Below are positions 14,202 to 27,690 of a DNA stretch of 34,578 nucleotides, piece by piece. Where the stretch lies: UHGV virus genome UHGV-0107442. One strand, given 5' to 3'. The position numbers and the translations under genes were made by a program. The notes under the pieces are model-generated. The model ran no database searches and was not told where the DNA came from. It saw only the letters and a program-made list of their open reading frames with translations. The DNA comes from a virus. How positions within the stretch are numbered: the first letter of the stretch is position 1; every line of letters begins with the position of its first letter.

Positions 14202-15967
14202 CAAAAAATCTCCACAATATTGCTGGTATTGGCGGACTCGCCCTGCAGCGGTTCGTTAAACAGTGCGTGCATTGTTGCCCAGGCCAGATCGGCATGGCTG
14301 GCTTCTTCGCTGCGGCTGGCTTCATAGGTTGGGCGGTTGCCGCTGGCGGTGGTGGCGCGACGGATTGCCATAAATGACTGCGCTATGTCGGTGTGTCCGG
14401 CGTCAAACTCCAGACGACGGTGACTGATAATGTCGTAGGCCTTGAGTACCAGGGCGTTTTTAACGTTGGGGTTGTAGACAAACTCCCGGACGGCTGGAAA
14501 AAACGCTTTCACGTTCTCGTAAACCCCGTGGCCGACACCTGTCGAGTCGATGCCGATGTAGGTCACGTTGTACTGTTCGGTCAGTTTTTTGATGGCGTCA
14601 GCCTGGGCGCGAAAGTCCATTCCGCGCCACTGGTGACGCTCAAGAATGCGGAACTTGCCGCCCGGTACGGTTGGCGGAGCCACCACCACGCATCCGGCGC
14701 TGTCGCCATTCTGCGTACCTTTCGCCGGGTCATAACCGATCCATACTTCGCGCCAGCCAAACGGGCGCAGGGCCAGTGCATGAAAGTCAGTCCAGACTTC
14801 CCAGCTGTCTACCATGCACGCCTGCAGCTCGCTGAGCGGGAACACGGACGCGAGATCGTCCACAAACTCGCACATCAGCAGGTTCTGGTATTCGTCCGGG
14901 CTGTACTCCATGCGCAACTGGTCAAGGTCGAACAGGTTACAGCCGCCGCGCACCGCATCTTCCACGGTGACTATCTGGCGGTATTGCCCGTCTGCGCACA
15001 GCAGGCCGGGGGCCAGATTGCTGTGGGACAGGTCGATGTCCACCTTATCGGCTTTGTTGCGCCCACGGTTGAACAGCGCACCGGACCAGAACGGATAAGC
15101 ACTGTGGGTCAGGCTGGATGGTGTGGAAAAATAGGTCTGCCGCCATTTCTTGTGAATAGCCATACCGGAAGCCACTTTGCGTAGCTCCTGAAATTTCGGT
15201 ATCCAGAAATATTCATCCAGATACAGGTTGCCGTGATAACTCTGAGCCGTGCGGGCATTGGTGCCGAGGAAGTAAAGCGTGGCCCCGTTAGGAAGCACCA
15301 TCGGATCGCCTTTCAGTTCCACATCCACTTCTTTGGCGAAGTCGATGATGTACTGCTTAAAGACGTGGGCCTGTGCCTTACTGGCGGAAAGAAAAATCTG
15401 GTTACGTCCGGTAAGCAGGGCGTCAATCAGGGCTTCACGGGCAAAGTAAAAGGTCGCGCCGATCTGGCGTGACTTCAGCAGGTTGCGGATGCGGTTGGTT
15501 TTTCCGACTTCCCACCAGTGGCGCTGGTAGTTGAACATGGAGGAATGGAAGATTTCTTCCAGCTTCTCAATCTGTTCATCGGTGAAGACATTCTTTTCCG
15601 GCTGACGGCGCGGGCCTTTGTTGCGGTTGGCGACGTTAGGGTTTAAGTCAGCTTCGTTGCCGCCATTGTTAAACTTGCCGATCCGCGCGTGGCGCTCCGA
15701 CTGGCGCGCCAGCAGGTCAATCTCTTTGAAATCTTTCCCTTCTTTGTGCTCCTTCATGATGAGCTGGCAGTAGCGTGCGGCGGTGGTGAGCTGCATCTGA
15801 TCCAGCGGCCCATAGTCACCCCACTTGTCGCGTTTTTTCCAGCTGTGAACGGTTGCAACTTTCTCGCCCAGCATTTCAGCAATGCGGGCTACGCGGTATC
15901 CCTGAAAGTACAGCAGCATGGCCTGCCGACGGGGATCGAGATCTGCGGGTGTCAGTGTGGTGTTCAT
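14201..15967 (-). CDS. P: Terminase large (ATPase) subunit (P2 gpP family)
   Basis: 588 aa; the P-then-Q leftward operon is characteristic of P2-like phages. ATG at 15967 (-). Confidence 0.9.
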   Translation of the reverse strand: MNTTLTPADLDPRRQAMLLYFQGYRVARIAEMLGEKVATVHSWKKRDKWGDYGPLDQMQLTTAARYCQLIMKEHKEGKDFKEIDLLARQSERHARIGKFNNGGNEADLNPNVANRNKGPRRQPEKNVFTDEQIEKLEEIFHSSMFNYQRHWWEVGKTNRIRNLLKSRQIGATFYFAREALIDALLTGRNQIFLSASKAQAHVFKQYIIDFAKEVDVELKGDPMVLPNGATLYFLGTNARTAQSYHGNLYLDEYFWIPKFQELRKVASGMAIHKKWRQTYFSTPSSLTHSAYPFWSGALFNRGRNKADKVDIDLSHSNLAPGLLCADGQYRQIVTVEDAVRGGCNLFDLDQLRMEYSPDEYQNLLMCEFVDDLASVFPLSELQACMVDSWEVWTDFHALALRPFGWREVWIGYDPAKGTQNGDSAGCVVVAPPTVPGGKFRILERHQWRGMDFRAQADAIKKLTEQYNVTYIGIDSTGVGHGVYENVKAFFPAVREFVYNPNVKNALVLKAYDIISHRRLEFDAGHTDIAQSFMAIRRATTASGNRPTYEASRSEEASHADLAWATMHALFNEPLQGESANTSNIVEIF

Positions 15968-16013
15968 GGCACAAACCTACAACCTTGAATGAAGGCTTTC
16001 CCCGCCTGCGGTT

Positions 16014-16031
16014 TGTGTGGTTGTCGGTACA
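16014..16031. promoter_or_regulatory. TGT-N12-ACA element between divergent P and O; candidate Ogr/Delta-type late-activator site
   Basis: TGT (16014..16016), 12 nt, ACA (16029..16031). P2-family late promoters carry this dyad upstream of the -35 region. It is the only such site in the 142-bp P-O intergenic region. Confidence 0.45.
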
Positions 16032-16109
16032 AATACCGCGCATTGTTTCACTGCCCCCATCACCGCAACCATAAGGCTCCAGTAAGTTTTTTCTAACGGA
16101 GCACGGCTC

Positions 16110-16943
16110 ATGACAGTGAAAGCAAAGCGTTTTCGCATCGGGGTGGAAGGTGCCACCACCGACGGACGCGAAATCCAGCGTGAATGGCTGGAACAGATGG
16201 CAGCCAGCTACAACCCGACGGTGTACACCGCGCTGATTAACCTTGAGCACATCAAGTCTTATCTGCCGGACAGCACCTTTAACCGCTACGGCAAGGTGAC
16301 GGCGCTGTTTGCTGAAGAAATCACGGAAGGTCCGCTGGCAGGCAAGATGGCGCTGTATGCCGACGTTGAGCCAACGGAGTCCCTGGTGGAGCTGGTGAAA
16401 AAAGGCCAGAAATTATTCACCTCTATGGAAGTCAGCCCGAAGTTCGCTGATACGGGCAAAGCCTACCTGGTCGGCCTGGCTGCCACTGATGACCCTGCCA
16501 GTCTGGGCACTGAAATGCTGACATTCAGCGCCAGTGCAGCCCATAACCCGCTGGCAAACCGCAAGCAGAATCCTGCCAATCTCTTTACCGCTGCAGAGGA
16601 AACGGTGATCGAACTGGAAGAAATCCAGGATGACAAACCGTCCCTGTTTGCCCGTGTCACGGCGCTGTTCACCAAAAAAGAGCAGTCCGATGACGCCCGG
16701 TTCTCTGATGTGCATAAGGCCGTGGAGCTGGTCGCCACTGAGCAGCAGAACCTGAGCGCACGCACCGAAAAATCCCTGTCTGAGCAGGAAGAACGTCTGT
16801 CTGAGCTGGAGACTGCTCTGCAGGCACAGCAGACCGCCTTTAACGAACTGGTGAATAAGCTGAGTCATGAAGACAGCCGCCAGGACTACCGCCAGCGTGC
16901 AACAGGCGGTAACGCCCCCGCTGACACTCTGACCAATTGCTGA
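16110..16943 (+). CDS. O: Capsid scaffolding protein (P2 gpO family)
   Basis: 277 aa, first gene of the rightward head operon; Glu/Gln-rich predicted coiled-coil C-terminal half. Confidence 0.85.
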   Translation: MTVKAKRFRIGVEGATTDGREIQREWLEQMAASYNPTVYTALINLEHIKSYLPDSTFNRYGKVTALFAEEITEGPLAGKMALYADVEPTESLVELVKKGQKLFTSMEVSPKFADTGKAYLVGLAATDDPASLGTEMLTFSASAAHNPLANRKQNPANLFTAAEETVIELEEIQDDKPSLFARVTALFTKKEQSDDARFSDVHKAVELVATEQQNLSARTEKSLSEQEERLSELETALQAQQTAFNELVNKLSHEDSRQDYRQRATGGNAPADTLTNC

Positions 16944-16959
16944 TGGAGCACAAAACCTG

Positions 16960-18018
16960 ATGAAGAAGAATACCCGCTTTGCTTTTAACGCTTACCTGCA
17001 GCAGCTGGCGCGTCTGAACGGTGTGGCAGTTGAAGAACTGTCCAGCAAGTTCACCGTGGAGCCGTCTGTGCAGCAGACGCTGGAAGACCAGATCCAGCAA
17101 TCCGCCGCTTTCCTGACGCTGATTAACGTCACGCCAGTGACCGAGCAGTCCGGTCAGCTGCTGGGGCTGGGTGTTGGCAGCACCATTGCCGGAACCACTG
17201 ATACCACCGCAAAAGAGCGTGAGCCTGTCGATCCGACGCTGATGGTCGATGTGGAATACAAATGCGAGCAGACCAACTTTGACACGGTGCTGACCTACGC
17301 GAAGCTGGACCTGTGGGCGAAGTTTCAGGATTTCCAGGTGCGTATTCGTGACGCGATCGTGAAACGTCAGGCACTGGACCGCATCATGATCGGCTTTAAC
17401 GGCGTGAAGCGTGCGAAAACCTCAAACCGTAGCGAAAACCCGCTGCTGCAGGATGTGAATAAAGGCTGGCTGCAGAAAATCCGTGAGGATGCACCGGATC
17501 ACGTCATGGGCAGCACCACCACGGGCGGTGAAACCACACCGGGTGCGGTGAAAGTCGGGAAAGGTGGCGAATATGCCAACCTGGACGCCGTGGTGATGGA
17601 TGCCGTCAATGAGCTTATCGACGTGGTCTACCAGGACGATGACGATCTGGTGGTGATTTGCGGTCGTGAACTGTTGTCTGACAAGTATTTCCCACTGGTC
17701 AACAAAGAGCAGGAAAACAGTGAAAAACTGGCTGCCGATATGATCATCAGTCAGAAACGCATGGGTGGCCTGCAGGCCGTGCGTGCGCCGTTCTTCCCGC
17801 CGAATGCACTGCTGATCACCCGTCTGGATAACCTGTCCATCTACTGGCAGGAAGACACCCGCCGCCGTTCAGTTATCGACAACCCGAAACGTGACCGGAT
17901 TGAAAACTTTGAATCCGTTAATGAAGCCTATGTGGTTGAGGACTACCGCTGCGCCGCACTGGTGGAAAACATCCAGATTGGTGATTTCAGCGCCGCCGCA
18001 GCCGAAACCGGAGCGTAA
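16960..18018 (+). CDS. N: Major capsid protein (P2 gpN family)
   Basis: 352 aa; strong remembered similarity to P2 N (...RFKFNAYL...KFTVEPSV...VKRQ.LD.IM.GFNGVKRA...DNSE.LAAD.IISQKR...). Confidence 0.9.
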   Translation: MKKNTRFAFNAYLQQLARLNGVAVEELSSKFTVEPSVQQTLEDQIQQSAAFLTLINVTPVTEQSGQLLGLGVGSTIAGTTDTTAKEREPVDPTLMVDVEYKCEQTNFDTVLTYAKLDLWAKFQDFQVRIRDAIVKRQALDRIMIGFNGVKRAKTSNRSENPLLQDVNKGWLQKIREDAPDHVMGSTTTGGETTPGAVKVGKGGEYANLDAVVMDAVNELIDVVYQDDDDLVVICGRELLSDKYFPLVNKEQENSEKLAADMIISQKRMGGLQAVRAPFFPPNALLITRLDNLSIYWQEDTRRRSVIDNPKRDRIENFESVNEAYVVEDYRCAALVENIQIGDFSAAAAETGA

Positions 18019-18021
18019 TCC

Positions 18022-18672
18022 ATGAGCCTGAGTCCCGCACGGCAGCATCGCCTGCGCGTTCAGGCTGAACAGGCCGCCCGCGAGGGCGGCAGTGTTCGCC
18101 ACGCATCGGGCTATGACCTGATGCTGCTGCAACTGGCGGAAGACCGCCGCCGTCTCAAGGGCGTTCAGTCCACGGTCAAAAAAGCGGAAATCAAGGTGGA
18201 GCTGCTGCCGAAGTACGCCGCCTGGGCAGAGGGTGTCCTGGCTGCCGGAGGCGCTCAACAGGATGACGTGCTGATGTACGTGATGCTGTGGCGCATTGAT
18301 GCCGGAGATTATGCCGGGGCGCTGGAGATCGGGCGTCATGCCCTGCGTCATGGCTGGGTGATGCCGCTGGGTAACCGCAACGTGCAGACCGTGCTGGCAG
18401 AGGAAATGGCAGACGCCGCGCAGAGCGCAATGCTTGCCGCCACCGGCTTTGATACCGATCTGTTGTTGCAGACGCTGGAGCTGACAGACGGTCTGGATAT
18501 GCCGGACCAGTCACGGGCGCGTCTGCATAAAGCGATTGGCGCTGTCCTGAGTGAAAGCAATCCGGCTTCCGCCCTTAATCATCTCAACCATGCGTTACAG
18601 CTTGATCCCCGCTGTGGCGTGAAAAAAGACAAACAGCAGCTGGAGCGCAGACTGCGCAATGACAGCCGCTGA
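18022..18672 (+). CDS. M: Terminase small / endonuclease subunit (P2 gpM family)
   Basis: 216 aa; position after N, 3 nt after its stop. Confidence 0.85.
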   Translation: MSLSPARQHRLRVQAEQAAREGGSVRHASGYDLMLLQLAEDRRRLKGVQSTVKKAEIKVELLPKYAAWAEGVLAAGGAQQDDVLMYVMLWRIDAGDYAGALEIGRHALRHGWVMPLGNRNVQTVLAEEMADAAQSAMLAATGFDTDLLLQTLELTDGLDMPDQSRARLHKAIGAVLSESNPASALNHLNHALQLDPRCGVKKDKQQLERRLRNDSR

Positions 18673-18767
18673 CAGAACGTGCCCCCGCGCACGGGCGGCA
18701 CGGGGTGGCGAAAGGCACTGCCACATCAAAACCCCGTCCACCGCCCTCTATTTCAGGAGAAAGCAGC

Positions 18768-19232
18768 ATGAAGTTTGTTGCGCCAGAACAGGCACCGGAA
18801 CAGGCGGAAATCATCAGAAATACGCCGTTCTGGCCTGATGTGGACCTGTCGGAGTTTCGCAGTGTCATGCGCACTGACGGCACGGTGACGCAGCCGCGTT
18901 TAAAGCAGGTTGCGCTGTCGGCAATTTCGGAGGTCAACGCAGAGCTGTATGAGTTTCGCAGACGTCAGCAGATGCTGGGGTATGTGTCGCTGGCTGAGGT
19001 TCCGGCGGAACAGCTGGACGGCAAAAGTGAGCGCATTCAGCACTATTTCAACGCGGTTTACTGCTGGGCACGCGCCATGCTCAACGAACGATACCAGGAC
19101 TATGACGCCACGGCATCCGGTGTGAAGCGAGGCGAGGAACTGGCGGAATCCAGCGGTGATTTGTGGCGTGACGCCCGCTGGGCCATCAGTCGGGTGCAGG
19201 ATGCGCCGCACTGCACAGTGGAGCTTATCTGA
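18768..19232 (+). CDS. L: Head completion / stabilisation protein (P2 gpL family)
   Basis: ORF 18705..19232 begins with GTG; ATG at 18768 follows CAGGAG. 154 aa; the stop overlaps the X start. Confidence 0.8.
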   Translation: MKFVAPEQAPEQAEIIRNTPFWPDVDLSEFRSVMRTDGTVTQPRLKQVALSAISEVNAELYEFRRRQQMLGYVSLAEVPAEQLDGKSERIQHYFNAVYCWARAMLNERYQDYDATASGVKRGEELAESSGDLWRDARWAISRVQDAPHCTVELI

Positions 19233-19435
19233 TGAAAGTGCGTGCGCATCAGTATGACACGGTGGACGCGCTTTGCTGGCGTCATTACGGGCGCACGCAG
19301 GGTGTCACGGAGCAGGTACTGAAGGCAAATCCGGGGCTTGCCGAATATGGCCCCTTTTTACCTCACGGGCTGCAGGTGGAGCTGCCGGACATTCCGACCA
19401 CCACCACCGTGCAGACCGTCCAGCTATGGGACTGA
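19232..19435 (+). CDS. X: Tail protein X (P2 gpX family)
   Basis: 67 aa, the same size and position as P2 X. Confidence 0.75.
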   Translation: MKVRAHQYDTVDALCWRHYGRTQGVTEQVLKANPGLAEYGPFLPHGLQVELPDIPTTTTVQTVQLWD

Positions 19436-19438
19436 ATT

Positions 19439-19654
19439 ATGACGCTTGAGCGAATCAGCGCCTTTATCACGTACTGCATCGCCGTTGTGCTGGCCTGGCT
19501 GGGCGATTTGTCCATCAAGGATGCCTCAACGCTGGGCGGCCTGATGATTGGTGTGCTGATGCTGGCTATCAACTGGTACTACAAGCACAAAGCCTACCAG
19601 CTTCTGCGCGACGGGCAGATCTCGCGGGAGGACTATGAATCCATCAATCGTTAA
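19439..19654 (+). CDS. Holin, probably a two-TMD pinholin
   Basis: 71 aa with two hydrophobic segments (ISAFITYCIAVVLAWLG and LGGLMIGVLMLAINWYY) and a charged C-terminus, directly upstream of and overlapping the endolysin gene. Confidence 0.7.
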   Translation: MTLERISAFITYCIAVVLAWLGDLSIKDASTLGGLMIGVLMLAINWYYKHKAYQLLRDGQISREDYESINR

Positions 19655-20147
19655 ACGCTGCCTTGTCGGGGCCGTGCTGGCTATTGCTGCCACGCTGCCG
19701 GGGTTTCAGCAGCTTCACACCTCCGTGGAGGGGCTGAAACTGATTGCCGATTACGAAGGCTGTCGTCTGCAGCCGTATCAGTGCAGCGCGGGCGTCTGGA
19801 CCGACGGCATTGGTAACACGTCAGGCGTCATTCCCGGCAAAACCATTACGGAACGACAGGCAGCAGAAGGACTGATTTCCAACGTGCTGCGTGTGGAGCG
19901 GGCGCTGGAAAGGTGTGTGAAACAACAGCCGCCGCAGAAGGTATATGACGCTGCGGTGTCGTTTGCCTTCAACGTGGGAACGGGCAATGCCTGCAGTTCC
20001 ACGCTGGTGAAATTACTCAATCAGCGGCGCTGGGCGGATGCGTGCCGACAGTTGCCGCGCTGGGTTTATGTAAAAGGTGTGTTTAATCAGGGGCTGGATA
20101 ACCGCCGTGCGCGGGAGATGGCCTGGTGTTTACAGGGAGCAAACTGA
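19635..20147 (+). CDS. SAR endolysin (T4-lysozyme-like, glycoside hydrolase family 24) with an N-terminal signal-anchor segment
   Basis: ATG 19635 follows GGGAGGA. N-terminal hydrophobic stretch CLVGAVLAIAATLPG, then EGLKLIADYEGCRLQPYQCSAGVWTDGIGNT (E...D...T catalytic arrangement). Confidence 0.85.
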   Translation: MNPSIVKRCLVGAVLAIAATLPGFQQLHTSVEGLKLIADYEGCRLQPYQCSAGVWTDGIGNTSGVIPGKTITERQAAEGLISNVLRVERALERCVKQQPPQKVYDAAVSFAFNVGTGNACSSTLVKLLNQRRWADACRQLPRWVYVKGVFNQGLDNRRAREMAWCLQGAN

Positions 20148-20148
20148 A

Positions 20149-20526
20149 ATGAAAAAGAAATTAATCAGCGGGCTGTTTCTGATGTTATGGATGGCGCTGT
20201 TAATCGCCGCAATGGTGTATCCGCAGGGGATTTTTCCGGTACTGGCAGCGTCCGGCGTTTGGGTAGCCTGTTTGCTGACATGGGCGGTAATTCCGGTAGC
20301 ACTGGCTGCGTTAATTAAGAATGGCCCGCTCTGGCAGGAGTTGAGGGCATCTTTGCTGAAGACAATTACCCGAAAAGAAAACGTATTTATCAGCTGGGTG
20401 ATGCGATTGCTGATTGTCGTAAGTCTCGCCTGGACGGAGTGGGCTATTACCCTGGTCTTTTATCTACTGACCGTTATTGCCTTCTGGATCACCCGTAATC
20501 AGATGGCGCAACAGGTAGCAGCATGA
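20149..20526 (+). CDS. LysA-like membrane protein (lysis accessory)
   Basis: ORF 20077..20526 in the track; ATG at 20149 follows AGGGAG, 1 nt after the endolysin stop. 125 aa, almost entirely hydrophobic helices. Confidence 0.65.
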   Translation: MKKKLISGLFLMLWMALLIAAMVYPQGIFPVLAASGVWVACLLTWAVIPVALAALIKNGPLWQELRASLLKTITRKENVFISWVMRLLIVVSLAWTEWAITLVFYLLTVIAFWITRNQMAQQVAA

Positions 20527-20951
20527 ACCGGTTGCTGCTGGGTGTGCTGGCGTTATTACTGACGGCGCTGGGCTGGCAGACGTGGCGGCTGGCTGATGCC
20601 AGCCAGACCATCAGCACGCAGGCAGACGAGCTGCAGAGCAAAAGCCAGGCGCTGGCAAAGAGCAACAACCAGCTTATCAGCCTGTCCATTCTGACTGAAA
20701 CTAACAACCGGGAGCAGGCGCGGCTCTATGCCGAAGCAGAACAGACCAGTGCACTGCTGAGACAACGACAACGCCGGATTGAGGAACTGAAACGTGAGAA
20801 CGAGGATTTACGCCGCTGGGCTGATACTCCTTTGCCTGCTGACATTATCCGGCTGCGGGAACGTCCGGCACTCACCGGAGGTGCAGCTTACCGTCAGTGG
20901 TTGTCCGCGAGTGACGCCGTGTCAGCTGGATCAGGCAGCGCCACACAATAA
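20523..20951 (+). CDS. LysB / Rz-like inner-membrane spanin
   Basis: 142 aa with an N-terminal TMD (LLLGVLALLLTALGW) and a coiled-coil-like, charged periplasmic domain. Confidence 0.7.
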   Translation: MNRLLLGVLALLLTALGWQTWRLADASQTISTQADELQSKSQALAKSNNQLISLSILTETNNREQARLYAEAEQTSALLRQRQRRIEELKRENEDLRRWADTPLPADIIRLRERPALTGGAAYRQWLSASDAVSAGSGSATQ

Positions 20952-21084
20952 CGGTGATCTGAACGCATTGCTGGATGAAACGGAGGCCGCCTGGGCGGTC
21001 TGTGCAGACAAAGTGGACATGATTATTGCGTGTCAGGAGCGAAACAGTGAACAAACCACAATCCCTGCGCCACGCCCTCAATAA
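20794..21084 (+). CDS. LysC / Rz1-like outer-membrane lipoprotein spanin, embedded out of frame in lysB
   Basis: GTG 20794 follows GAGGA at 8-nt spacing. Signal peptide with lipobox (LLTLSGC) and a Pro-rich mature part. The embedded arrangement matches P2 lysB/lysC. Confidence 0.65.
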   Translation: MRTRIYAAGLILLCLLTLSGCGNVRHSPEVQLTVSGCPRVTPCQLDQAAPHNNGDLNALLDETEAAWAVCADKVDMIIACQERNSEQTTIPAPRPQ

Positions 21085-21478
21085 AGCAGTGCCTTATGTC
21101 CGTAATAACCCGGACAAACTGCATCTGTTTGTGGATAACGGTTCGCTGGTTGCCACCGGGGCCAGCTCCATGTCATGGGAGTACCGCTACACCCTTAACG
21201 TGGTGATTGAAGATTTCAGCGGCGACCAGAATCTGCTGATGGCCCCGGTTTTGCTGTGGCTGCGGGATAACCAGTCTGATGCCATCAATAACCCGACGTT
21301 ACGGGAAAAGCTATTCACCTTTGAAGTGGATATTCTGCGCAACGATGTCTGTGATATCAGCCTGAACCTGCAGCTGACGGAGCGTGTGCTGGTCAGCACT
21401 GACGGAAGTGTGTCGAGCGTTGAAGCGATAACGGAACCCGATGAACCTGAAGAAATGTGGACGGTGAAACGTGGCTGA
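21047..21478 (+). CDS. R: Tail completion protein (P2 gpR family)
   Basis: ORF 21026..21478 begins with TTG; GTG at 21047 follows AGGAG at 7-nt spacing. Remembered similarity to P2 R (...LKTNPD.L.IFVDNGS...YTLNV...). Confidence 0.8.
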   Translation: MNKPQSLRHALNKAVPYVRNNPDKLHLFVDNGSLVATGASSMSWEYRYTLNVVIEDFSGDQNLLMAPVLLWLRDNQSDAINNPTLREKLFTFEVDILRNDVCDISLNLQLTERVLVSTDGSVSSVEAITEPDEPEEMWTVKRG

Positions 21479-21917
21479 ACTGCAGAAAGTAGACGACTGG
21501 CTGAGTGCCTTGCTGGCGAATCTGGAGCCAGTCGCAAGAAGCCGCATGATGCGTCAGCTGGCGCAGGAACTGCGCCGGACACAGCAACAGAACATCAGGA
21601 TGCAGCGCAATCCAGATGGCAGCAGTTATGAGCCGCGCAGAGTAACAGCACGCAGCAAAAAGGGGCGCATCAAACGTCAGATGTTTACAAAGCTGCGCAC
21701 CACAAAATACCTGAAAACTGCCGCCAGCGCCGACTCTGCCAGCGTGCAGTTTGAAGGCAAGGTGCAGCGCATTGCCCGCGTTCACCATTACGGCCTGCGA
21801 GATCGCGTCAGTCGTAAGGGACCGGAGGTGCGTTACGCAGAGCGTCGCCTTCTGGGTGTAAATGATGATGTTGAGGCAATGACCCGCGACATGATTCTGC
21901 AATGGCTGGCGGGGTGA
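21471..21917 (+). CDS. S: Tail completion protein (P2 gpS family)
   Basis: 148 aa; start overlaps the R stop. Begins with GTG. Confidence 0.8.
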   Translation: MAELQKVDDWLSALLANLEPVARSRMMRQLAQELRRTQQQNIRMQRNPDGSSYEPRRVTARSKKGRIKRQMFTKLRTTKYLKTAASADSASVQFEGKVQRIARVHHYGLRDRVSRKGPEVRYAERRLLGVNDDVEAMTRDMILQWLAG

Positions 21918-21921
21918 TCTT

Positions 21922-21939
21922 TGTATCAGCACTGATACA
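21922..21939 (+). promoter_or_regulatory. TGT-N12-ACA late-promoter activator site upstream of V
   Basis: Perfect dyad TGTATCAG-CA-CTGATACA in the 68-bp S-V intergenic gap. Confidence 0.5.
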
Positions 21940-21985
21940 AGTTGCAGCACTGCCGCCTTTCTTCCCCTGATGGCAACCTTTCCCT

Positions 21986-22564
21986 ATGAACGCACAATTA
22001 ACCGAAATCATGCGCCTTATCACCAACCTGATCCGCACAGGGGTAGTCACCGAAGTGGACAGGGAAAACTGGCTTTGCCGGGTGAAAACGGGCGAGCTTG
22101 AAACCAACTGGATCAGCTGGCTGACGCTGCGTGCCGGGAATGCCCGTACATGGTGGCGACCATCGGAAGGTGAGCAGGTGGTGCTGCTGAGTCTGGGCGG
22201 CAATCTGGAAACCGCCTTTGCGCTGCCCGCTGTCTATTCGAATCAGTTCGCACCACCGTCGACGTCGGCGGACGCCTGCGTGACAGAACATCCTGACGGT
22301 GGCTGGTTTGAATACGAACCCGCCACCGGGCGCTGGTATGTCAGGGGCATCAAATCAATGGTCATTGAGGCTGCTGACAACATCACCATGAAAACCAGTG
22401 AGTTTGTACTGGAGGCTGACCGCACGCGCATTAACAGCGAAGTGATGATCAATGGTGGCGTTACCCAGGGCGGCGGAGCGATGAGTTCTAACGGGATCGT
22501 GGTTGATGCGCATCAGCATACTGGCGTCCTGAAAGGCGGCGATACAACCGGAGGCCCGGTATGA
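21986..22564 (+). CDS. V: Baseplate spike / assembly protein (P2 gpV family)
   Basis: 192 aa; remembered similarity to P2 V (...W..WL..RAG...TWW.PS.GEQV...GG.L..AF.LP..YS...). Glycine-rich C-terminus. Confidence 0.85.
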   Translation: MNAQLTEIMRLITNLIRTGVVTEVDRENWLCRVKTGELETNWISWLTLRAGNARTWWRPSEGEQVVLLSLGGNLETAFALPAVYSNQFAPPSTSADACVTEHPDGGWFEYEPATGRWYVRGIKSMVIEAADNITMKTSEFVLEADRTRINSEVMINGGVTQGGGAMSSNGIVVDAHQHTGVLKGGDTTGGPV

Positions 22565-22920
22565 CGCTTTATAGCGGGATGAACAATACCAGCGGCAAAG
22601 TCATTACTGATATTGATCATCTGCGCCAGTCGGTGCGGGACATTCTGCTGACACCGCAGGGTAGCCGTATTGCCCGCCGGGAATATGGTTCCCTGCTGTC
22701 GGCACTGATAGATCAGCCACAAAATCCGGCATTACGCCTGCAGGTCATGTCGGCAGTGTATGTGGCGCTGAGTCGCTGGGAGCCACGGTTGACGCTGGAT
22801 TCCATCACCATCAACAGCAATTTTGACGGTTCAATGGTGGTGGAGCTGACCGGGCGGCGGAATAACGGTGTGCCTGTGTCCCTTTCCGTATCAACAGGAG
22901 CAGAGAATGGCAGTGATTGA
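22561..22920 (+). CDS. W: Baseplate protein (P2 gpW family)
   Basis: 119 aa; overlaps the V stop. Confidence 0.85.
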   Translation: MTLYSGMNNTSGKVITDIDHLRQSVRDILLTPQGSRIARREYGSLLSALIDQPQNPALRLQVMSAVYVALSRWEPRLTLDSITINSNFDGSMVVELTGRRNNGVPVSLSVSTGAENGSD

Positions 22921-23815
22921 CCTTTCGCAGTTGCCTGCACCGCAGATTGTGGATGTGCCGGACTTTGAGACGCTGCTTGCCGAACGCAAGGCAGAATTTG
23001 TGGCGCTTCATCCGAAAGATGAGCAGGAAGCAGTGATCCGCACGCTGGAACTGGAATCTGAACCCGCCACTAAATTGTTGCAGGAGAACGCTTACCGTGA
23101 GTTGCTTCTGCGCCAGCGCATTAACGAAGCCGCGCAGGCGGTGATGGTGGCTTACGCGATGGGCGGCGATCTTGACCAGCTCGCTGCCAACTACAACGTG
23201 ACACGCCTGACGGTGACGCCTGCTGATAATGATGCTGTGCCGCCCGTTGCAGCTGTGATGGAAAGCGATGAAGCGTTGCGCCTGCGTGTGCCTGCAGCCT
23301 TTGAAGGGCTTTCTGTTGCGGGGCCAACTGCAGCTTATGAATTTCATGCCCGAAGCGCCGACGGTCGGGTGGCGGATGCCAGTGCAACCAGCCCGGCACC
23401 TGCAGAGGTGGTGCTGACTGTCCTTAGCCGCGAAGGCGATGGAACTGCAGAAAAAGACCTGCTGGACGTGGTGGAAAAAGCTCTGAACAGTGAGAACGTC
23501 CGCCCGGTGGCTGACCGTCTTACGGTTCGCAGCGCAGAAATCATCCCGTATCGCGTGGAAGCCACCATTTTTCTCTATCCTGGACCGGAAGCAGAGCCGG
23601 TAATGGCAGCGGCAAAAGCCAGCCTGCAGAAGTACATCGCCAGTCAGACGCGTCTTGGTCGGGATATTCGCCGTAGCGCCATCTTTGCCGCCCTGCATGT
23701 TGAGGGGGTGCAGCGTGTGGAGCTGGCTTCTCCTCTGGCGGATGTGGTCCTGAACAAAACACAGGCGGCATCATGTACGCAGTGGAGCGTAACCAACGGA
23801 GGAACGGATGAATAG
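22907..23815 (+). CDS. J: Baseplate assembly protein (P2 gpJ family)
   Basis: ORF 22868..23815 in the track; ATG at 22907 follows CAGGAG. 302 aa, the same as P2 J. Confidence 0.85.
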   Translation: MAVIDLSQLPAPQIVDVPDFETLLAERKAEFVALHPKDEQEAVIRTLELESEPATKLLQENAYRELLLRQRINEAAQAVMVAYAMGGDLDQLAANYNVTRLTVTPADNDAVPPVAAVMESDEALRLRVPAAFEGLSVAGPTAAYEFHARSADGRVADASATSPAPAEVVLTVLSREGDGTAEKDLLDVVEKALNSENVRPVADRLTVRSAEIIPYRVEATIFLYPGPEAEPVMAAAKASLQKYIASQTRLGRDIRRSAIFAALHVEGVQRVELASPLADVVLNKTQAASCTQWSVTNGGTDE

Positions 23816-24413
23816 TCTGCTGCCACCGGGTTCAACACCACTGGAGCGCCGACTGGCGCAAACCTGCAGCGGGATTTCTGATCTGCAGGTGCCGCTTCGT
23901 GACTTGTGGAATCCGGCAACCTGTCCGGTCAGTTTCCTGCCTTATCTCGCCTGGGCGTTCTCTGTGGATCGCTGGGACGAGGGCTGGACAGAAAGCGTCA
24001 AGCGCCAGGTGGTGAAGGATGCTTTTTATATTCATCAGCATAAAGGGACCACCAGTGCCGTGCGGCGGGTGGTGGAGCCGTTCGGATTCCTGATCCGCAT
24101 TATTGAGTGGTGGCAGACCGGAGAAACACCGGGCACGTTTCGCCTGGATATCGGCGTGCAGGACCAGGGCATCACTGAAGATACCTATCTGGAACTTGAG
24201 CGACTGATAAGCGATGCCAAACCATGTAGCCGCCACATGATCGGCATGTCCATCAATCTGCAGACCAGCGGCCCGCATTGGGTGGGAGCCGCCAGCTATC
24301 TTGGCGAAGAAATCACGATCTATCCGTATATCAACGAAACGATTATTTCCGGTGGCACCGCGCATGAAGGCGGGGCGGTCCATGTTATTGACACAATGAG
24401 AGTGAATCCATGA
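23808..24413 (+). CDS. I: Baseplate / tail protein (P2 gpI family)
   Basis: 201 aa; overlaps both neighbours. Confidence 0.85.
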   Translation: MNSLLPPGSTPLERRLAQTCSGISDLQVPLRDLWNPATCPVSFLPYLAWAFSVDRWDEGWTESVKRQVVKDAFYIHQHKGTTSAVRRVVEPFGFLIRIIEWWQTGETPGTFRLDIGVQDQGITEDTYLELERLISDAKPCSRHMIGMSINLQTSGPHWVGAASYLGEEITIYPYINETIISGGTAHEGGAVHVIDTMRVNP

Positions 24414-25801
24414 GCACAAAATTTTATACCCTGCTGACGGATATTGGCGCGGCGAAACTTGCCAGCGCCGCCGCGCTCGGTGTGCCGCTAAAAATTACCC
24501 ATATGGCGGTGGGCGATGGCGGTGGAGTATTGCCAACGCCGGACGCAAAGCAGACGGCACTGGTAAATGAGAAACGCCGGGCTGCGCTGAATATGCTTTA
24601 TATCGACCCGCAGAACAGCAGCCAGATTATTGCCGAACAGGTGATCCCTGAAAACGAGGGCGGTTGGTGGATACGTGAAGTGGGCTTGTTTGATGAGTCC
24701 GGGGCATTGATTGCCGTGGGCAACTGCCCGGAAAGCTATAAGCCGCAACTGGCTGAAGGTAGCGGGCGCACTCAGACCGTGCGCATGGTGCTGATTACCA
24801 GCAGCACGGACAATATCACCCTGAAAATCGACCCTGCTGTAGTGCTGGCAACCCGCAAGTATGTGGATGACAAGGCACTGGAGCTGAAGGTGTACGCGGA
24901 TGATCAGATGGCAAAACATCTTGCCGCACCGGACCCGCATTCACAGTACGCGCCAAAAGCCAGCCCGACATTTACCGGAACCCCCAAAGCGCCAACGCCA
25001 GCGGCGGGGAATAATACCACGCAGGTTGCGACCACTGCGTTTGTACAGGCGGCACTGACGGCCCTTATTAATGGTGCGCCAGCCACGCTGGACACGCTGA
25101 AAGAAATAGCCGCAGCCATTAACAATGATCCGAATTTCAGTACCACCATTAACAATGCGCTGGCACTAAAAGCACCGTTGTCGAGTCCGGCACTCACCGG
25201 AACGCCAACAGCCCCCACGGCGGCGCAGTCGATCAACAATACACAGATTGCCACTACGGCTTTTGTGAAATCGGCGATTGCAGGAATGGTGGGTTCTGCA
25301 CCTGCTGCACTGGATACACTGAACGAACTGGCGGCGGCACTGGGGAATGATCCGAACTTTGCCACGACAATGCTTAATGCGCTGGCAGGTAAACAACCGC
25401 TGGACAATACGCTTACCAATTTGAGTGGAAAGGATGTAGCTGGTCTTCTCACATACCTTGGTTTGGGAGAAGCCAGATATGTCATTCAGCGAGGAGCTAA
25501 TGTCAATGGTGCATGGATACGCTGGTCAGATGGTGCAATAGAAGTATTTGGAACTGGTGGTTCCAATGATAATGGGCTGGCTAAAGTCGTTTATCCAATT
25601 GCACTACCTAAGCTTTCACGTTTTATCAGCATAGCGGAAAGAATAAGAACAGATTACGAGGCCACACCTAATAACGTTCACGTTTCAATGATCGTGGATG
25701 ACCAGGTCAGTAATACAGGTTTTTATGTCCGCTGCCAGATGTACGACGGAAGACCATCAACAAGTGCTTTTTCCTGGAGAGTTTATTGTGCGCCTGTTTA
25801 A
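24410..25801 (+). CDS. H: Tail fibre protein (P2 gpH-like constant N-terminal region plus variable C-terminus in the current orientation)
   Basis: 463 aa. Two tandem copies of a roughly 70-aa repeat (...TGTPKAPTPAAGNNTTQVATTAFVQAAL...DTLKEIAAAINNDPNF... and ...TGTPTAPTAAQSINNTQIATTAFVKSAI...DTLNELAAALGNDPNF...). The inversion crossover site lies inside the gene at 25458..25478 (encodes GLGEAR). Confidence 0.85.
   Translation: MSTKFYTLLTDIGAAKLASAAALGVPLKITHMAVGDGGGVLPTPDAKQTALVNEKRRAALNMLYIDPQNSSQIIAEQVIPENEGGWWIREVGLFDESGALIAVGNCPESYKPQLAEGSGRTQTVRMVLITSSTDNITLKIDPAVVLATRKYVDDKALELKVYADDQMAKHLAAPDPHSQYAPKASPTFTGTPKAPTPAAGNNTTQVATTAFVQAALTALINGAPATLDTLKEIAAAINNDPNFSTTINNALALKAPLSSPALTGTPTAPTAAQSINNTQIATTAFVKSAIAGMVGSAPAALDTLNELAAALGNDPNFATTMLNALAGKQPLDNTLTNLSGKDVAGLLTYLGLGEARYVIQRGANVNGAWIRWSDGAIEVFGTGGSNDNGLAKVVYPIALPKLSRFISIAERIRTDYEATPNNVHVSMIVDDQVSNTGFYVRCQMYDGRPSTSAFSWRVYCAPV
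25458..25478 (+). repeat. Left inversion crossover site, inside H
   Basis: Identical to the reverse complement of 26894..26914. Confidence 0.7.
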
Positions 25802-25985
25802 TCCTGTTACTTTGACTGAAGTAATCCCCGGTCTTCATGACGTGACCGGGGCTGTGGAATTACCAGAAGATAACTGGTTTTTTACTGCATCTGAAATCCC
25901 TGAAGGAATGGAAATATCTGTTAACGAGAAGGGCGAACCCATTCTGATTGAGATTAAACCATATCAGGTGGAACTGGCCAGATAA
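25788..25985 (+). CDS. Small ORF after the active fibre C-terminus; putative tail-fibre assembly/chaperone protein (65 aa)
   Basis: GTG 25788 follows GGAGA at 7-nt spacing and overlaps the H stop. Function assigned by position (equivalent to U of Mu-type invertible segments); no motif recognised. Confidence 0.4.
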   Translation: MRLFNPVTLTEVIPGLHDVTGAVELPEDNWFFTASEIPEGMEISVNEKGEPILIEIKPYQVELAR

Positions 25986-26220
25986 CCCCCGGCGCGGTGC
26001 TGGTATCTGCTTCCATCACCGCGTCGATATTACCAACATCATATTCAGTCATTTCCGGTTCCGGTGGTGCTATAAACTCTCCGTCAGAATAGAACCAACC
26101 GACGCCTGCATCTATATGATCAATATTTATAATTTCGCAGTTAGAGAATAAATCACCCTCTCCATCCCAGATAATAATATTTTTCACCACGCCATGTTCA
26201 ATCAGAGCAAAATTACTCAT
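25954..26220 (-). CDS. Small ORF of the alternative cassette; putative tail-fibre assembly/chaperone protein (88 aa)
   Basis: ATG at 26220 (-) overlaps the stop of the alternative fibre C-terminus (ATGA). Convergent with the ORF at 25788..25985, as expected for an invertible segment. Confidence 0.5.
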   Translation of the reverse strand: MSNFALIEHGVVKNIIIWDGEGDLFSNCEIINIDHIDAGVGWFYSDGEFIAPPEPEMTEYDVGNIDAVMEADTSTAPGVIWPVPPDMV

Positions 26221-26954
26221 CAGGCATACTCCTCAACAATAACTATTCCCGGGGCACCGTCACCTCCCGATTGAGCCTCACTTCCAGCAGGTGCGCAGGC
26301 TCCGCCTCCGCCAGAACCAAAGCCCTCAGCTTTACCACCACCACGTCCGCTGAATGATGAAGAACTTGCACCACCTATACCGCCTGAACCTAATGGTGTA
26401 TCCCCCCCGTTACCCCCTGCTACAGCTTTAACAGAGATAACCATTGCTCCTGGTGTTTTTGCACTACAGCGAAATGCTCTTAGTACAGTACCGGACGATG
26501 TCGGACTGGCACCCCGTGAAATACCCTGAATATATGATGTGTTTGCAGATGCTCCCCCCGCGCCACCGCCTGTACCACCAGGTGCAGTTATCATGGAACC
26601 GAAATAAGTTGTGCCACCTTCACTACCTGAATTTCTTCCGGCTCCCCCCCCTTTACCTGCAGCACCGATAATAACGTTGACTTCGAAATCATTATCAACC
26701 TCGAAAAATGCTTCAATAAATGCGCCGCTCAATCCAGCTCCGGCTGTTGCCTGCTGATTTTCTGTTGTTTCAGGAACCCCACCGCCGCCGCCACCGCCAC
26801 CAGAGGCAATGACCCTTATCTTTTTTGTCCCTGGTGTTGGGATATATTTTCCAGAGCTTTTAAAAATATTCGTGTTTAACAAACGACCAGAGAATCTGGC
26901 TTCTCCCAAACCAACGTTTAAGAAAATGCAGAGGTAACAGCTAACTGGCATCAT
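26220..26954 (-). CDS. Alternative, glycine-rich tail-fibre C-terminal cassette (silent in this orientation)
   Basis: The minus-strand ORF encodes VGLGEARF at the crossover site (26894..26914), in frame with the same GLGEAR encoded in H. Inversion would fuse about 230 aa of Gly-rich sequence (runs such as GGGGGGGG, GGTGGGAGG) to the H constant part. The first 14 codons before the crossover are probably not part of any real protein. Confidence 0.65.
   Translation of the reverse strand: MMPVSCYLCIFLNVGLGEARFSGRLLNTNIFKSSGKYIPTPGTKKIRVIASGGGGGGGGVPETTENQQATAGAGLSGAFIEAFFEVDNDFEVNVIIGAAGKGGGAGRNSGSEGGTTYFGSMITAPGGTGGGAGGASANTSYIQGISRGASPTSSGTVLRAFRCSAKTPGAMVISVKAVAGGNGGDTPLGSGGIGGASSSSFSGRGGGKAEGFGSGGGGACAPAGSEAQSGGDGAPGIVIVEEYA
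26901..26926. repeat. Right inversion crossover site (gix/hix/cix-like)
   Basis: TTCTCCCAAACC-AA-CGTTTAAGAAAA: two 12-bp half-sites around a 2-bp core, resembling remembered hix/gix sites (for example TTCTTGAAAACC-AA-GGTTTTTGATAA). Confidence 0.6.
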
Positions 26955-26981
26955 CTCCGGTTTTTATTCAGGGGGATGATC

Positions 26982-27548
26982 ATGCTTATTGGCTATGTAC
27001 GCGTGTCAACAAATGACCAGAACACCGATTTGCAACGTAATGCACTGAATTGCGCGGGATGTGAGCAGATTTTTGAGGACAAAATCAGTGGCACTAAGTC
27101 CGACAGACCGGGGCTGAAAAAACTACTCAGGACACTATCGGCAGGAGACACGCTGGTTGTCTGGAAGCTGGACAGGTTGGGGCGCAGTATGCGGCATCTT
27201 GTTACGCTGATAGAAGAGTTGCGCCAGCGTGGTGTGAATTTCGGAAGCCTGACTGACAGTATTGATACCAGTACCCCAATGGGCCGTTTCTTTTTTCATG
27301 TCATGGGTGCCCTGGCTGAAATGGAACGCGAACTGATAGTTGAACGTACCAGGGCAGGGCTGGCTGCAGCTCGTGCCAAAGGCAGAGTAGGTGGACGCCG
27401 TCCTAAGTTGACCACCGAACAGTGGGCACAGATTGGGCGTTTACTCGAGGCCGGAGAATCAAGACAGCGTATTGCACTGATTTTTGATGTAGGCGTTTCT
27501 ACCATTTATAGAAAATTTCCGGCAAATAAGATCAATGAATCCCCCTGA
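26982..27548 (+). CDS. Serine recombinase, DNA invertase (Hin/Gin/Cin/Pin family)
   Basis: MLIGYVRVSTNDQNTDLQ... with the catalytic-serine motif (VRVSTNDQ) and a C-terminal HTH. ATG 26982 follows AGGGGG; an alternative ATG at 26976 is in frame. Confidence 0.85.
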   Translation: MLIGYVRVSTNDQNTDLQRNALNCAGCEQIFEDKISGTKSDRPGLKKLLRTLSAGDTLVVWKLDRLGRSMRHLVTLIEELRQRGVNFGSLTDSIDTSTPMGRFFFHVMGALAEMERELIVERTRAGLAAARAKGRVGGRRPKLTTEQWAQIGRLLEAGESRQRIALIFDVGVSTIYRKFPANKINESP

Positions 27549-27596
27549 ATCAGCATTATGTTGATTATCCCTGCAAGCAGACAAATACCGTTATTT

Positions 27597-27614
27597 TGTG
27601 TGAATAACGACACA
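27597..27614 (+). promoter_or_regulatory. TGT-N12-ACA late-promoter activator site upstream of the sheath gene
   Basis: TGT (27597..27599), GTGAATAACGAC, ACA (27612..27614), 77 bp upstream of the ATG at 27691. Confidence 0.5.
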
Positions 27615-27690
27615 ACTGCGCTTAGCTGTTTGTCAGGCACAATCACTTCAACATAGGGCGAAGCCTAATCCAATCAGGAGGTTCGCCACT

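What the first reader, a model, noticed from the sequence alone, without database searches (positions are those of the whole stretch)
16014..27614. Three TGT-N12-ACA late-activator sites mark the late operons; P and O appear to share one
TGT-N12-ACA dyads occur at 16014..16031 (between divergent P and O), 21922..21939 (before V) and 27597..27614 (before the sheath gene), exactly where P2 late promoters are expected. Only one site was found in the P-O region, so either the two divergent promoters share it or the second site is degenerate. The activator gene itself (ogr/B homologue) is not in the window and is expected just downstream of D.
Basis: partly seen in the sequence, partly recalled or inferred. 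Interest (0 to 1): 0.4.

Follow-up and report, generated by a model that had tools for sequence, protein, structure and literature searches.

The report
P2-type late promoter activator sites
The three dyads are real, conserved binding sites for the phage's Ogr-type late activator in a P2-like E. coli prophage, arranged as in phages P2 and 186 (one site shared by the divergent P and O promoters); the only mildly new point is that the terminase (P) and baseplate (V) messages are predicted to start at their ATG, with no leader.

Summary
Confirmed and largely ordinary. The window is a Fels-2/4LV2017-like P2-family prophage inserted next to a host TetR-family gene. TGT-N12-ACA lies at 16014-16031 (P/O), 21922-21939 (before V) and 27597-27614 (before FI). 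The bare motif is not enriched window-wide (10 found, 9.06 expected). The extended form TTGTR-N10-YACAA is enriched (4 found, 0.16 expected). Three of those four sit in the three late intergenic regions; the fourth is a host-side operator-like palindrome. In hundreds of relatives every P-O, V and FI upstream region keeps one such dyad, with TGT/ACA invariant and the interior free to vary. A -10-like nAnnnT hexamer follows at a fixed 43.5-44.5 bp from the dyad centre. The GenBank records of P2 and 186 each annotate one activator site for both divergent head promoters, with start sites about 55.5 bp either side, so "P and O share one" is the known architecture. An ogr/Delta gene lies 91 nt after D in an E. 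coli genome identical over the window's last 1179 bases. Added inference: the dyad centre is exactly 55.5 bp from the A of the P ATG (invariant in 90 distinct relatives) and of the V ATG. Both mRNAs are therefore predicted leaderless. P2 annotates this for V, but P2 and 186 have a 23-nt P leader.

The parts
16013..16032 (.). Shared activator (Ogr-homologue) binding dyad TTGTGTGGTTGTCGGTACAA serving the divergent PP and PO promoters; centre 16022.5
   Evidence: It is the single dyad in all 50 and 90 distinct relatives' P-O spacers. TGT/ACA are invariant and the interior is variable. P2 and 186 annotate one shared site.
15974..15979 (-). Predicted PP -10 element TAGGTT (minus strand), at -12..-7 relative to the A of the P ATG
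   Evidence: TAnnnT is invariant in 90 distinct regions (TATGTT, TAGGTT, TAGGCT, TATTTT, TAATCT, TAGTCT). It starts 43.5 bp from the dyad centre. P2 has TAGCCT at the same offset before its mapped PP start.
15965..15967 (-). P start codon; its A (15967) is the predicted PP transcription start, giving a leaderless terminase mRNA
   Evidence: It lies 55.5 bp from the dyad centre, the distance of the annotated P2 PP start. The distance is invariant in relatives while the O-side distance varies from 81.5 to 100.5. The N-terminus aligns with P2 gpP from residue 1. M17 is not conserved.
16067..16072 (+). Predicted PO -10 element AACCAT; predicted start about 16079 (range 16078-16082), giving a leader of about 31 nt before O (ATG 16110)
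   Evidence: AACCAT or AAACAT lies 44.5 bp after the centre in 80 of 86 relatives and at 43.5 bp in the other 6. In 186 the annotated pV feature ends 56.5 bp from the dyad centre.
21921..21940 (.). PV activator dyad TTGTATCAGCACTGATACAA; centre 21930.5
   Evidence: Eleven unrelated upstream sequence families each carry one dyad centred 54.5-57.5 bp from the V ATG.
21974..21979 (+). Predicted PV -10 element CAACCT, at -12..-7 of the V ATG
   Evidence: nAnnnT at this place in 10 of 11 families (background 5.9%). P2 has CAATCT one base further upstream of its mapped start.
21986..21988 (+). V start codon; its A (21986) is the predicted PV transcription start (leaderless V mRNA, as annotated in P2)
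   Evidence: It lies 55.5 bp from the dyad centre. The P2 record places the V operon start on the first base of the V coding sequence (10308). V aligns with P2 V from M1.
27596..27615 (.). PF activator dyad TTGTGTGAATAACGACACAA; centre 27605.5
   Evidence: All 62 distinct FI upstream regions carry a dyad (61 carry one, 1 carries two).
27649..27654 (+). Predicted PF -10 element CAACAT; predicted start about 27661, giving a 30-nt leader with the Shine-Dalgarno AGGAGG at 27676-27681 before FI (ATG 27691)
   Evidence: nAnnnT lies 43.5 bp after the dyad centre in 62 of 62 relatives, while leader length varies from 23 to 30 nt.
13176..15967 (-). P-Q operon (terminase large subunit, portal), driven by PP
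   Evidence: Pfam; synteny with P2.
16110..21917 (+). O operon (scaffold O, capsid N, small terminase M, L, X, lysis genes, R, S), driven by PO
   Evidence: synteny with P2, 4LV2017 and Fels-2.
21986..25801 (+). V operon (V, W, J, I, H), continuing into the invertible tail-fibre segment, driven by PV
   Evidence: synteny.
27691..34528 (+). F operon (FI sheath, FII tube, E/E', T, U, D), driven by PF; the ogr homologue follows just beyond the window end

Best explanation
The three dyads are the operator sites of the prophage's Ogr/B/Delta-family zinc-finger late activator. Its gene lies about 40 nt beyond the window end. Each site is TTGTR-N10-YACAA and lies upstream of a weak sigma-70 promoter that has a -10-like nAnnnT hexamer but no -35 element. 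The dyad centre is 43.5-44.5 bp from the start of the hexamer, so about 55.5-56.5 bp from the transcription start. By analogy with P2, 186 and P4, the bound activator recruits RNA polymerase through the alpha subunit C-terminal domain and switches on four late operons: P-Q, O-S, V-H and FI-D. Because the site is two-fold symmetric, the single copy between P and O serves both divergent promoters, whose starts lie about 55.5 bp to the left and about 56.5 bp to the right. In this lineage (Fels-2, 4LV2017 and many prophages of Enterobacterales) the leftward start coincides with the A of the P ATG, and the PV start coincides with the A of the V ATG. Both first genes would then be translated from leaderless mRNAs. 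O and FI have leaders of about 30 nt with Shine-Dalgarno sequences. Shown here: the sites, their conservation, the spacing, the homology to annotated P2 and 186 features, and the presence of the activator gene. Inferred: binding, activation, the alpha-CTD contact and the exact 5' ends. The confidence of 0.9 applies to the sites being Ogr-type late-activator sites with one shared P/O site; the leaderless-P sub-claim alone is about 0.65.
For: Sites and statistics. Identity as a P2-family prophage with P2 late-gene order. P2 annotation: one activator site for pO and pP; starts at 3016 and 3127, both 55.5 bp from the centre of TGTGTCAGTGATAAGCCA (3063-3080); the V start on the V ATG; the pF site and start. 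186 annotation: one B site for pV and p12, plus the pJ site and initiation point. Conservation: 50 and 90 distinct P-O spacers have one dyad each, with invariant TGT/ACA and a variable interior. Eleven unrelated V upstream families (V protein 98-99% identical) each have one dyad 54.5-57.5 bp from the ATG. All 62 distinct FI upstream regions carry a dyad and a fixed-offset -10 (62 of 62), while leader length varies. No full sigma-70 promoter lies on the relevant strands. Leaderless P: the centre-to-ATG distance is 55.5 in every class-B relative, down to about 60% gpO identity, while centre-to-O ATG varies from 81.5 to 100.5. TAnnnT at -12..-7 of the ATG is invariant, while any AGG there is lost in most variants. 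One-codon indels inside the P N-terminus do not move the ATG relative to the site, and residue 17 is Leu in 14 of 38 variants. The N-terminus is homologous to P2 gpP from Met1. Activator: an ogr/Delta zinc-finger gene lies 91 nt after D in a 100%-identical E. coli segment, 51% identical to P2 Ogr with the C4 motif intact.
Against: No transcript 5' ends, binding data or activator-dependence data exist for this phage, so all start sites are predictions with an uncertainty of a few bases. The bare motif is not enriched window-wide. P2's and 186's own sites read TGT-N12-CCA rather than the perfect palindrome found here, so the specificity of this Ogr homologue may differ. The PO -10 assignment (AACCAT, against the overlapping CATAAG) is ambiguous by a few bases. 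RefSeq annotates the 4LV2017 P gene from the downstream Met17, which would give a 48-nt leader. Part of the invariance of the 55.5-bp distance could reflect shared ancestry rather than constraint. The 45-nt spacer averages only 68% pairwise identity with no indel, which argues against that.
Confidence: 0.9

Rival explanations
1. The three matches are chance occurrences of a loose 6-base pattern and have no function.
For: The bare pattern occurs 10 times against 9.06 expected in the window. Four matches lie inside genes and one overlaps the P start codon.
Against: Three sites fall in 352 bp of late intergenic DNA where 0.092 are expected. The extended motif occurs 4 times against 0.16 expected. 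One dyad at a fixed distance is kept in every relative, including V upstream regions that are otherwise unrelated in sequence.
Confidence: 0.01
2. PP has its own separate, degenerate activator site, so two sites lie in the P-O spacer and are not shared.
For: A second bare TGT-N12-ACA lies at 15956-15973. P2 and 186 sites are themselves imperfect (TGT-N12-CCA), so a degenerate site could escape a strict search.
Against: The 15956-15973 match overlaps the P start codon, is kept in only 12 of 38 relatives, and its left half is explained by coding. A site centred about 55 bp upstream of any start with a leader would have to lie at 16035 or beyond, where no core match of 5 of 6 or better is conserved. 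The P-side spacer between the dyad and the -10 is the least conserved stretch. P2 and 186 are annotated with one shared site.
Confidence: 0.04
3. PP starts upstream of the ATG, or P is translated from Met17 (15919), so P has a normal leader. The 55.5-bp coincidence would then be an accident of a compact spacer.
For: RefSeq annotates the 4LV2017 P gene from the Met17 equivalent. In the window, AGG lies 8 nt before the ATG and could pass for a weak Shine-Dalgarno sequence.
Against: The AGG is replaced by ATG, ATT or AAT in most relatives, while TAnnnT is invariant. Residue 17 is Leu in 14 of 38 variants, and DLDPRRQA upstream of it is invariant and shared with P2. The Pfam Terminase_5 domain begins at residue 11. 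The distance is invariant over 90 distinct spacers with 68% mean identity. No conserved -10-like element lies further upstream.
Confidence: 0.2
4. The dyads, especially the perfect 8+8 palindrome after gene S, are RNA hairpins acting as transcription terminators or attenuators, not protein-binding sites.
For: TGTATCAGCACTGATACA lies 4 nt after the S stop codon, where P2 annotates an O-operon terminator region. It can form a 9-bp stem.
Against: No T-run follows any of the dyads, and the terminator scan does not call them. Their folding energies are not unusual (z -0.8 to -1.4). In relatives the interior of the dyad is not self-complementary and only TGT/ACA are kept, which fits a protein-binding site rather than a stem.
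Confidence: 0.02

Closest known systems
Bacteriophage P2 late promoters PP, PO, PV, PF (Ogr-dependent)
   Same: The same four operons in the same order. A dyad lies about 55 bp upstream of each start. A single site between the divergent P and O promoters is annotated as serving both, 55.5 bp from each start. The V transcript is annotated as starting on the A of the V ATG. There is no -35 element. The activator gene lies directly after D. The consensus TGT-N12-ACA is stated in PMC3931495.
   Different: P2's own sites are imperfect (TGT-N12-CCA or -CAA), whereas the window's are perfect and extend to TTGTR-N10-YACAA. P2 has a 23-nt P leader with a GAGG Shine-Dalgarno sequence, whereas here the ATG sits at the predicted +1. 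The P-O spacer is 173 bp in P2 and 142 bp here. The Ogr proteins are only 51% identical.
Coliphage 186 late promoters p12, pV, pJ (B-dependent)
   Same: One annotated B-protein site (3798-3817) activates both divergent promoters p12 and pV. The geometry is 55.5 bp and 56.5 bp from the dyad centre, as predicted here. A pJ site lies before the sheath gene. The CI-type repressor and the gene order are the same.
   Different: The 186 sites are TGT-N12-CCA. 186 has a leader of about 23 nt on the terminase gene (class A, centre-to-ATG 78.5).
Salmonella prophage Fels-2 (Felsduovirus) and Klebsiella phage 4LV2017 (Elveevirus)
   Same: The closest sequenced relatives. The P-O spacer is 142 bp and the S-V spacer 68 bp, as in the window. 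Fels-2 also has an invertase before FI, and both have ogr after D. They belong to the same 'class B' with the dyad 55.5 bp from the P ATG.
   Different: Neither record annotates late promoters or activator sites. 4LV2017 annotates P from Met17.
Satellite phage P4 late promoters Psid and PLL (Delta-dependent)
   Same: The same activator family and the same TGT-N12-ACA consensus at about -55 (from my own knowledge of the Julien and Calendar work, cited in PMC3931495; not re-read here).
   Different: P4 promoters carry additional activator sites closer to the start (from my own knowledge). No conserved second site is seen here.

Membership tests
P2/186/P4-type Ogr/B/Delta-dependent late promoters | A partial-dyad element with consensus TGT-N12-ACA upstream of the promoter | tested here: met
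   Perfect matches at 16014-16031, 21922-21939 and 27597-27614. The extended form occurs 4 times against 0.16 expected. It is conserved in all relatives examined.
P2/186/P4-type Ogr/B/Delta-dependent late promoters | Dyad centred about 55 bp upstream of the transcription start | not testable with these tools
   No 5'-end data exist for this phage. Indirectly consistent: a conserved nAnnnT hexamer starts 43.5-44.5 bp from each centre, which places +1 at 55.5-56.5. This matches the annotated starts of P2 (55.5, 55.5, about 56, 56.5-58.5) and 186 (55.5, 56.5, 57.5).
P2/186/P4-type Ogr/B/Delta-dependent late promoters | Sites precede the late morphogenetic operons (P-Q, O..S, V..G, F..D) | tested here: met
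   Gene identities by Pfam and synteny with P2, 4LV2017 and Fels-2.
P2/186/P4-type Ogr/B/Delta-dependent late promoters | A weak promoter with a -10-like element but no recognisable -35 element | tested here: met
   The consensus scan finds no sigma-70 promoter on the relevant strands in the three regions. The -10-like hexamers are conserved.
P2/186/P4-type Ogr/B/Delta-dependent late promoters | A cognate Ogr/Delta C4 zinc-finger activator encoded by the element | tested here: met
   The gene is not inside the window. It lies 91 nt after D in an E. coli genome 100% identical over the window's last 1179 bases. The 4LV2017 homologue matches Pfam Ogr_Delta (5.8e-22). The E. coli homologue is 51% identical to P2 Ogr with the CxxC...CxxxxC motif kept.
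P2/186/P4-type Ogr/B/Delta-dependent late promoters | Transcription depends on the activator and on the alpha C-terminal domain of RNA polymerase (the rpoA109 phenotype) | not testable with these tools
   This needs genetics or in vitro transcription. It rests on my own knowledge of the P2 literature.
Shared bidirectional activator site (P2 pP/pO; 186 p12/pV) | A single dyad midway between two divergent late starts about 111 bp apart | tested here: met
   There is one conserved dyad in the 142-bp spacer. -10-like hexamers lie 43.5 bp to the left and 44.5 bp to the right. The P2 and 186 records annotate the same arrangement. The starts themselves are inferred.
Leaderless phage mRNAs (P2 V as the precedent) | The transcript's 5' end coincides with the A of an AUG start codon, with no Shine-Dalgarno sequence | tested here: inconclusive
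   Geometry and conservation point to +1 at 15967 (P) and 21986 (V). The start codon is ATG in all relatives and there is no conserved Shine-Dalgarno sequence. No transcript or translation data exist.

The most novel reading that the evidence does not exclude
In a large Fels-2/4LV2017-like lineage of P2-family prophages spread across Enterobacterales, the shared late-activator dyad is locked at 55.5 bp from the terminase (P) start codon. The packaging operon would then be expressed, like the V baseplate operon, from a leaderless mRNA. This differs from P2, 186 and PSP3, which keep a 23-nt leader with a Shine-Dalgarno sequence. Two of the four late operons would begin with leaderless translation, which may set low terminase and spike stoichiometry.
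Probability: 0.65. Interest if true: 0.35.

Novelty: new member of a known kind. Interest (0 to 1): 0.27.

Why it matters
The result gives a reliable, transferable annotation rule for late promoters in P2-family prophages: TTGTR-N10-YACAA, then nAnnnT 43.5-44.5 bp from the centre, then +1 at 55.5-56.5 bp. Database records of these very common E. coli, Klebsiella and Salmonella prophages lack such annotation. It corrects a probable start-codon error for the terminase gene in a RefSeq phage record. It also predicts leaderless terminase and baseplate-spike messages that can be tested directly. None of this changes the understanding of how P2-type late activation works. The shared bidirectional site and the leaderless V message are already recorded for P2 and 186.

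Tried and rejected
1. I replaced it with the extended motif and with positional and comparative tests.
2. The second bare match at 15956-15973 was considered as a second PP/PO site. I rejected it because only 12 of 38 relatives keep it and its left half is coding.
3. One-mismatch matches to the extended motif lie at 12167 (inside the AIPR gene), 15955 and 34329 (inside D). One-mismatch matches are not enriched (7 found, 4.38 expected), and I did not pursue them as promoters.
4. The terminator or RNA-hairpin reading of the dyads was rejected.
5. A class-II-like geometry for PP, with a start about 14 nt upstream of the ATG, was rejected. That stretch is the least conserved part of the spacer and holds no conserved -10.
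6. The fourth perfect extended match, at 10-29, turned out to lie outside the prophage, upstream of a host TetR-family gene. It is not a late promoter.
7. Literature: the primary P2, P4 and 186 promoter papers are not in the held library. Two full-text searches for leaderless P2-like terminase messages found nothing relevant, and one broad search was uninformative. Mechanistic statements about alpha-CTD contact and the extra P4 sites therefore rest on my own knowledge.

Full report
What the window is. The window carries a P2-family prophage, about 96% identical to Klebsiella phage 4LV2017 and 98% to Escherichia phage 500465-1 over the late region. The late-gene order is that of P2: Q and P leftward, then O through S, V through H, and FI through D rightward (Pfam; synteny with P2, 4LV2017 and Fels-2). 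It encodes an integrase (691-1899, minus strand), a 186-type CI repressor and a gpA replicase. Its left end lies near 603-616, judged by a partial match to the 4LV2017 attR core. The first 590 bases or so are host DNA encoding a TetR-family regulator. The last 1179 bases are 100% identical to several E. coli chromosomes, where the prophage abuts ybjL.

The observation. TGT-N12-ACA occurs at 16014-16031, 21922-21939 and 27597-27614, exactly as reported. The bare pattern is not enriched over the window: 10 matches against 9.06 expected. Four matches lie wholly in genes, two lie in host DNA at the left edge, and one (15956-15973) overlaps the P start codon. The three reported sites fall in the 352 bp of the three late intergenic regions, where 0.092 are expected (P about 1e-4). 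All three also share a longer consensus, TTGTR-N10-YACAA. That pattern occurs 4 times against 0.16 expected, and 0 of 100 shuffles reach 4. The fourth match (10-29) lies outside the prophage.

Comparison with characterised phages. The P2 GenBank record annotates a single 'activator binding site; pO, pP promoters' at 3057-3087. It places the P transcript start at 3016 (minus strand) and the O start at 3127. The dyad there, TGTGTCAGTGATAAGCCA (3063-3080), is centred at 3071.5, exactly 55.5 bp from both starts. The same record places the V operon start on the first base of the V coding sequence (10308), so P2's V message is leaderless. It places the pF site about 57 bp before the F start. The 186 record likewise annotates one B-protein site 'activation of pV and p12 promoters', plus a pJ site and initiation point. 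Measured from the TGT...CCA dyad centres, the annotated ends are 55.5, 56.5 and 57.5 bp away.

Conservation in relatives. I fetched 80 loci around gpO homologues from IMG/VR. They gave 50 distinct P-O spacers. Each has exactly one perfect dyad, with TGT and ACA invariant and the interior variable. I also fetched 80 loci from species-representative genomes, spanning 99% down to 46% gpO identity. These fall mainly into two classes. Class A comprises P2, 186, PSP3 (by its 165-bp spacer) and relatives. Its sites read TGT-N12-CCA or similar, and the centre lies 77.5-78.5 bp from the P ATG, which is 55.5 bp plus a 23-nt leader. Class B comprises the window, Fels-2 and prophages of Klebsiella, Citrobacter, Enterobacter, Pantoea, Erwinia, Tatumella, Rosenbergiella, Plesiomonas, Buttiauxella and others. 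Its dyads are perfect, and the centre lies exactly 55.5 bp from the A of the P ATG in all 90 distinct regions. The centre-to-O ATG distance meanwhile ranges from 81.5 to 100.5 bp. A few prophages (Serratia, Sodalis, Acerihabitans) have the centre 56.5-57.5 bp from the ATG, two Yersinia prophages 83.5 bp, and some of the most distant loci showed no match at the threshold used. The 45-nt P-side spacer averages only 68% pairwise identity, yet it never has an indel.

The V and FI promoters. The 80 closest V homologues (98-99% protein identity) have 27 distinct upstream regions, which fall into 11 mutually unrelated sequence families. Different cargo is evidently inserted after S. Every family carries one dyad centred 54.5-57.5 bp (mostly 55.5 bp) from the V ATG. 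Ten of the 11 families have nAnnnT at -12..-7 of the ATG, against a background frequency of 5.9%. All 62 distinct FI upstream regions carry a dyad (61 carry one, 1 carries two). A hexamer nAnnAT (GAACAT, CAACAT, TACCAT and others) begins 43.5 bp after the centre in 62 of 62, while the implied leader varies from 23 to 30 nt. On the O side, AACCAT or AAACAT begins 44.5 bp after the centre in 80 of 86 regions and 43.5 bp in the rest. On the P side, the hexamer at -12..-7 of the ATG is always TAnnnT. All four promoters thus share one architecture: dyad, a fixed 43.5-44.5 bp to a -10-like hexamer, and hence +1 at 55.5-56.5 bp. No full sigma-70 promoter is detected on the relevant strands, as expected for activator-dependent promoters that lack a -35 element.

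Predicted starts in the window. PP is predicted to start at 15967, the A of the P ATG. PO is predicted to start near 16079, leaving a leader of about 31 nt. PV is predicted to start at 21986, the A of the V ATG. PF is predicted to start near 27661, leaving a 30-nt leader with AGGAGG at 27676-27681.

The case for a leaderless P message rests on six points.
- The geometry is identical to the mapped P2 PP start.
- The TAnnnT hexamer is invariant and sits 6 nt before the A of the ATG.
- Any Shine-Dalgarno-like AGG is lost in most variants (TATGTT, TATTTT, TAATCT).
- The P N-terminus is homologous to P2 gpP from Met1, with an invariant DLDPRRQA motif.
- Residue 17, the start used in the RefSeq 4LV2017 record, is Leu in 14 of 38 variants.
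- One-codon indels inside the N-terminus leave the ATG fixed relative to the dyad.
This remains an inference. No 5'-end data exist for this phage.

The activator. The window ends 50 bases after D. In an E. coli genome identical over the window's last 1179 bases, an 'ogr/Delta-like zinc finger family protein' gene starts 91 nt after D, which is about 40 nt beyond the window end. Its product is 51% identical to P2 Ogr and keeps the C4 motif. The 4LV2017 homologue matches Pfam Ogr_Delta.

Rivals. Chance is excluded by position and conservation. A terminator or hairpin role is excluded because no T-run follows the dyads, their folding energies are unremarkable (z -0.8 to -1.4) and the dyad interiors are not complementary in relatives. 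A separate degenerate PP site is unsupported. A conventional leader on P is the main residual doubt, which I put at about 0.2.

Mechanism. By homology with P2 Ogr, 186 B and P4 Delta, the activator binds the dyad and contacts the alpha C-terminal domain of RNA polymerase at a promoter without a -35 element. One symmetric site serves two divergent promoters. The consensus and the four-promoter scheme are stated in PMC3931495.

Verdict. This is a new member of a well-known kind. The one modestly new element is the predicted leaderless terminase message, conserved across a large prophage lineage.

Noticed in passing
window 10-29 (with overlapping bare matches at 11-28 and 21-38): TTGTGTACATTTGTACACAA is a near-perfect 20-bp palindrome that matches the extended late-site pattern. 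It lies in host DNA, about 20 nt upstream of a TetR-family gene (ATG 50, stop 586; Pfam TetR_N and TetR_C_31), about 570 bp outside the prophage's left end. It is probably that regulator's own operator. The resemblance to the phage activator site is probably coincidental, but it sits directly beside the prophage.
   Followed up: partly
window 8962-13145: The cargo region upstream of Q carries a Septu defence pair, PtuA (8962-10164, PADLOC 1e-151) and PtuB (10166-10912, 2e-95). It also carries an AIPR/AbiU-like abortive-infection gene (11322-13145). This is the position where P2 carries old and tin.
   Followed up: partly
window 25446-27548: Inverted repeats at 25446-25478 and 26894-26926 (33 nt, 85% complementary) flank about 1.4 kb that holds a reverse-oriented glycine-rich ORF (26220-26954). 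A Hin/Gin-type serine invertase (26976-27548) lies next to it. This looks like an invertible tail-fibre segment of the kind annotated in Fels-2. The PF dyad lies just downstream of the invertase gene.
   Followed up: partly
L002 2459-4177 (Klebsiella phage 4LV2017 RefSeq, gene P); window 15919 versus 15967: RefSeq starts the terminase large subunit at the codon equivalent to Met17 (573 aa). Conservation of residues 1-16, with Leu at position 17 in 14 of 38 variants, indicates that the upstream ATG is the true start (588 aa, as annotated in Fels-2).
   Followed up: yes
window 34329-34348: TTGCGTCATTCTCGCTACAA has one mismatch to the extended activator-site pattern. It lies inside the 3' end of D, about 280 bp upstream of the ogr homologue. 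One-mismatch matches are not enriched (7 found, 4.38 expected), so this is probably chance. Possible autoregulation of ogr was not examined.
   Followed up: no
L001 (P2) and L243 (186) late promoter sites; L324-L403: The model phages P2 and 186 have TGT-N12-CCA at their annotated activator sites and no perfect TGT-N12-ACA there. Class-B prophages (Fels-2 and 4LV2017-like) have perfect palindromic sites. The split coincides with the presence or absence of the 23-nt P leader and may reflect different specificities of the Ogr homologues (51% identity).
   Followed up: partly
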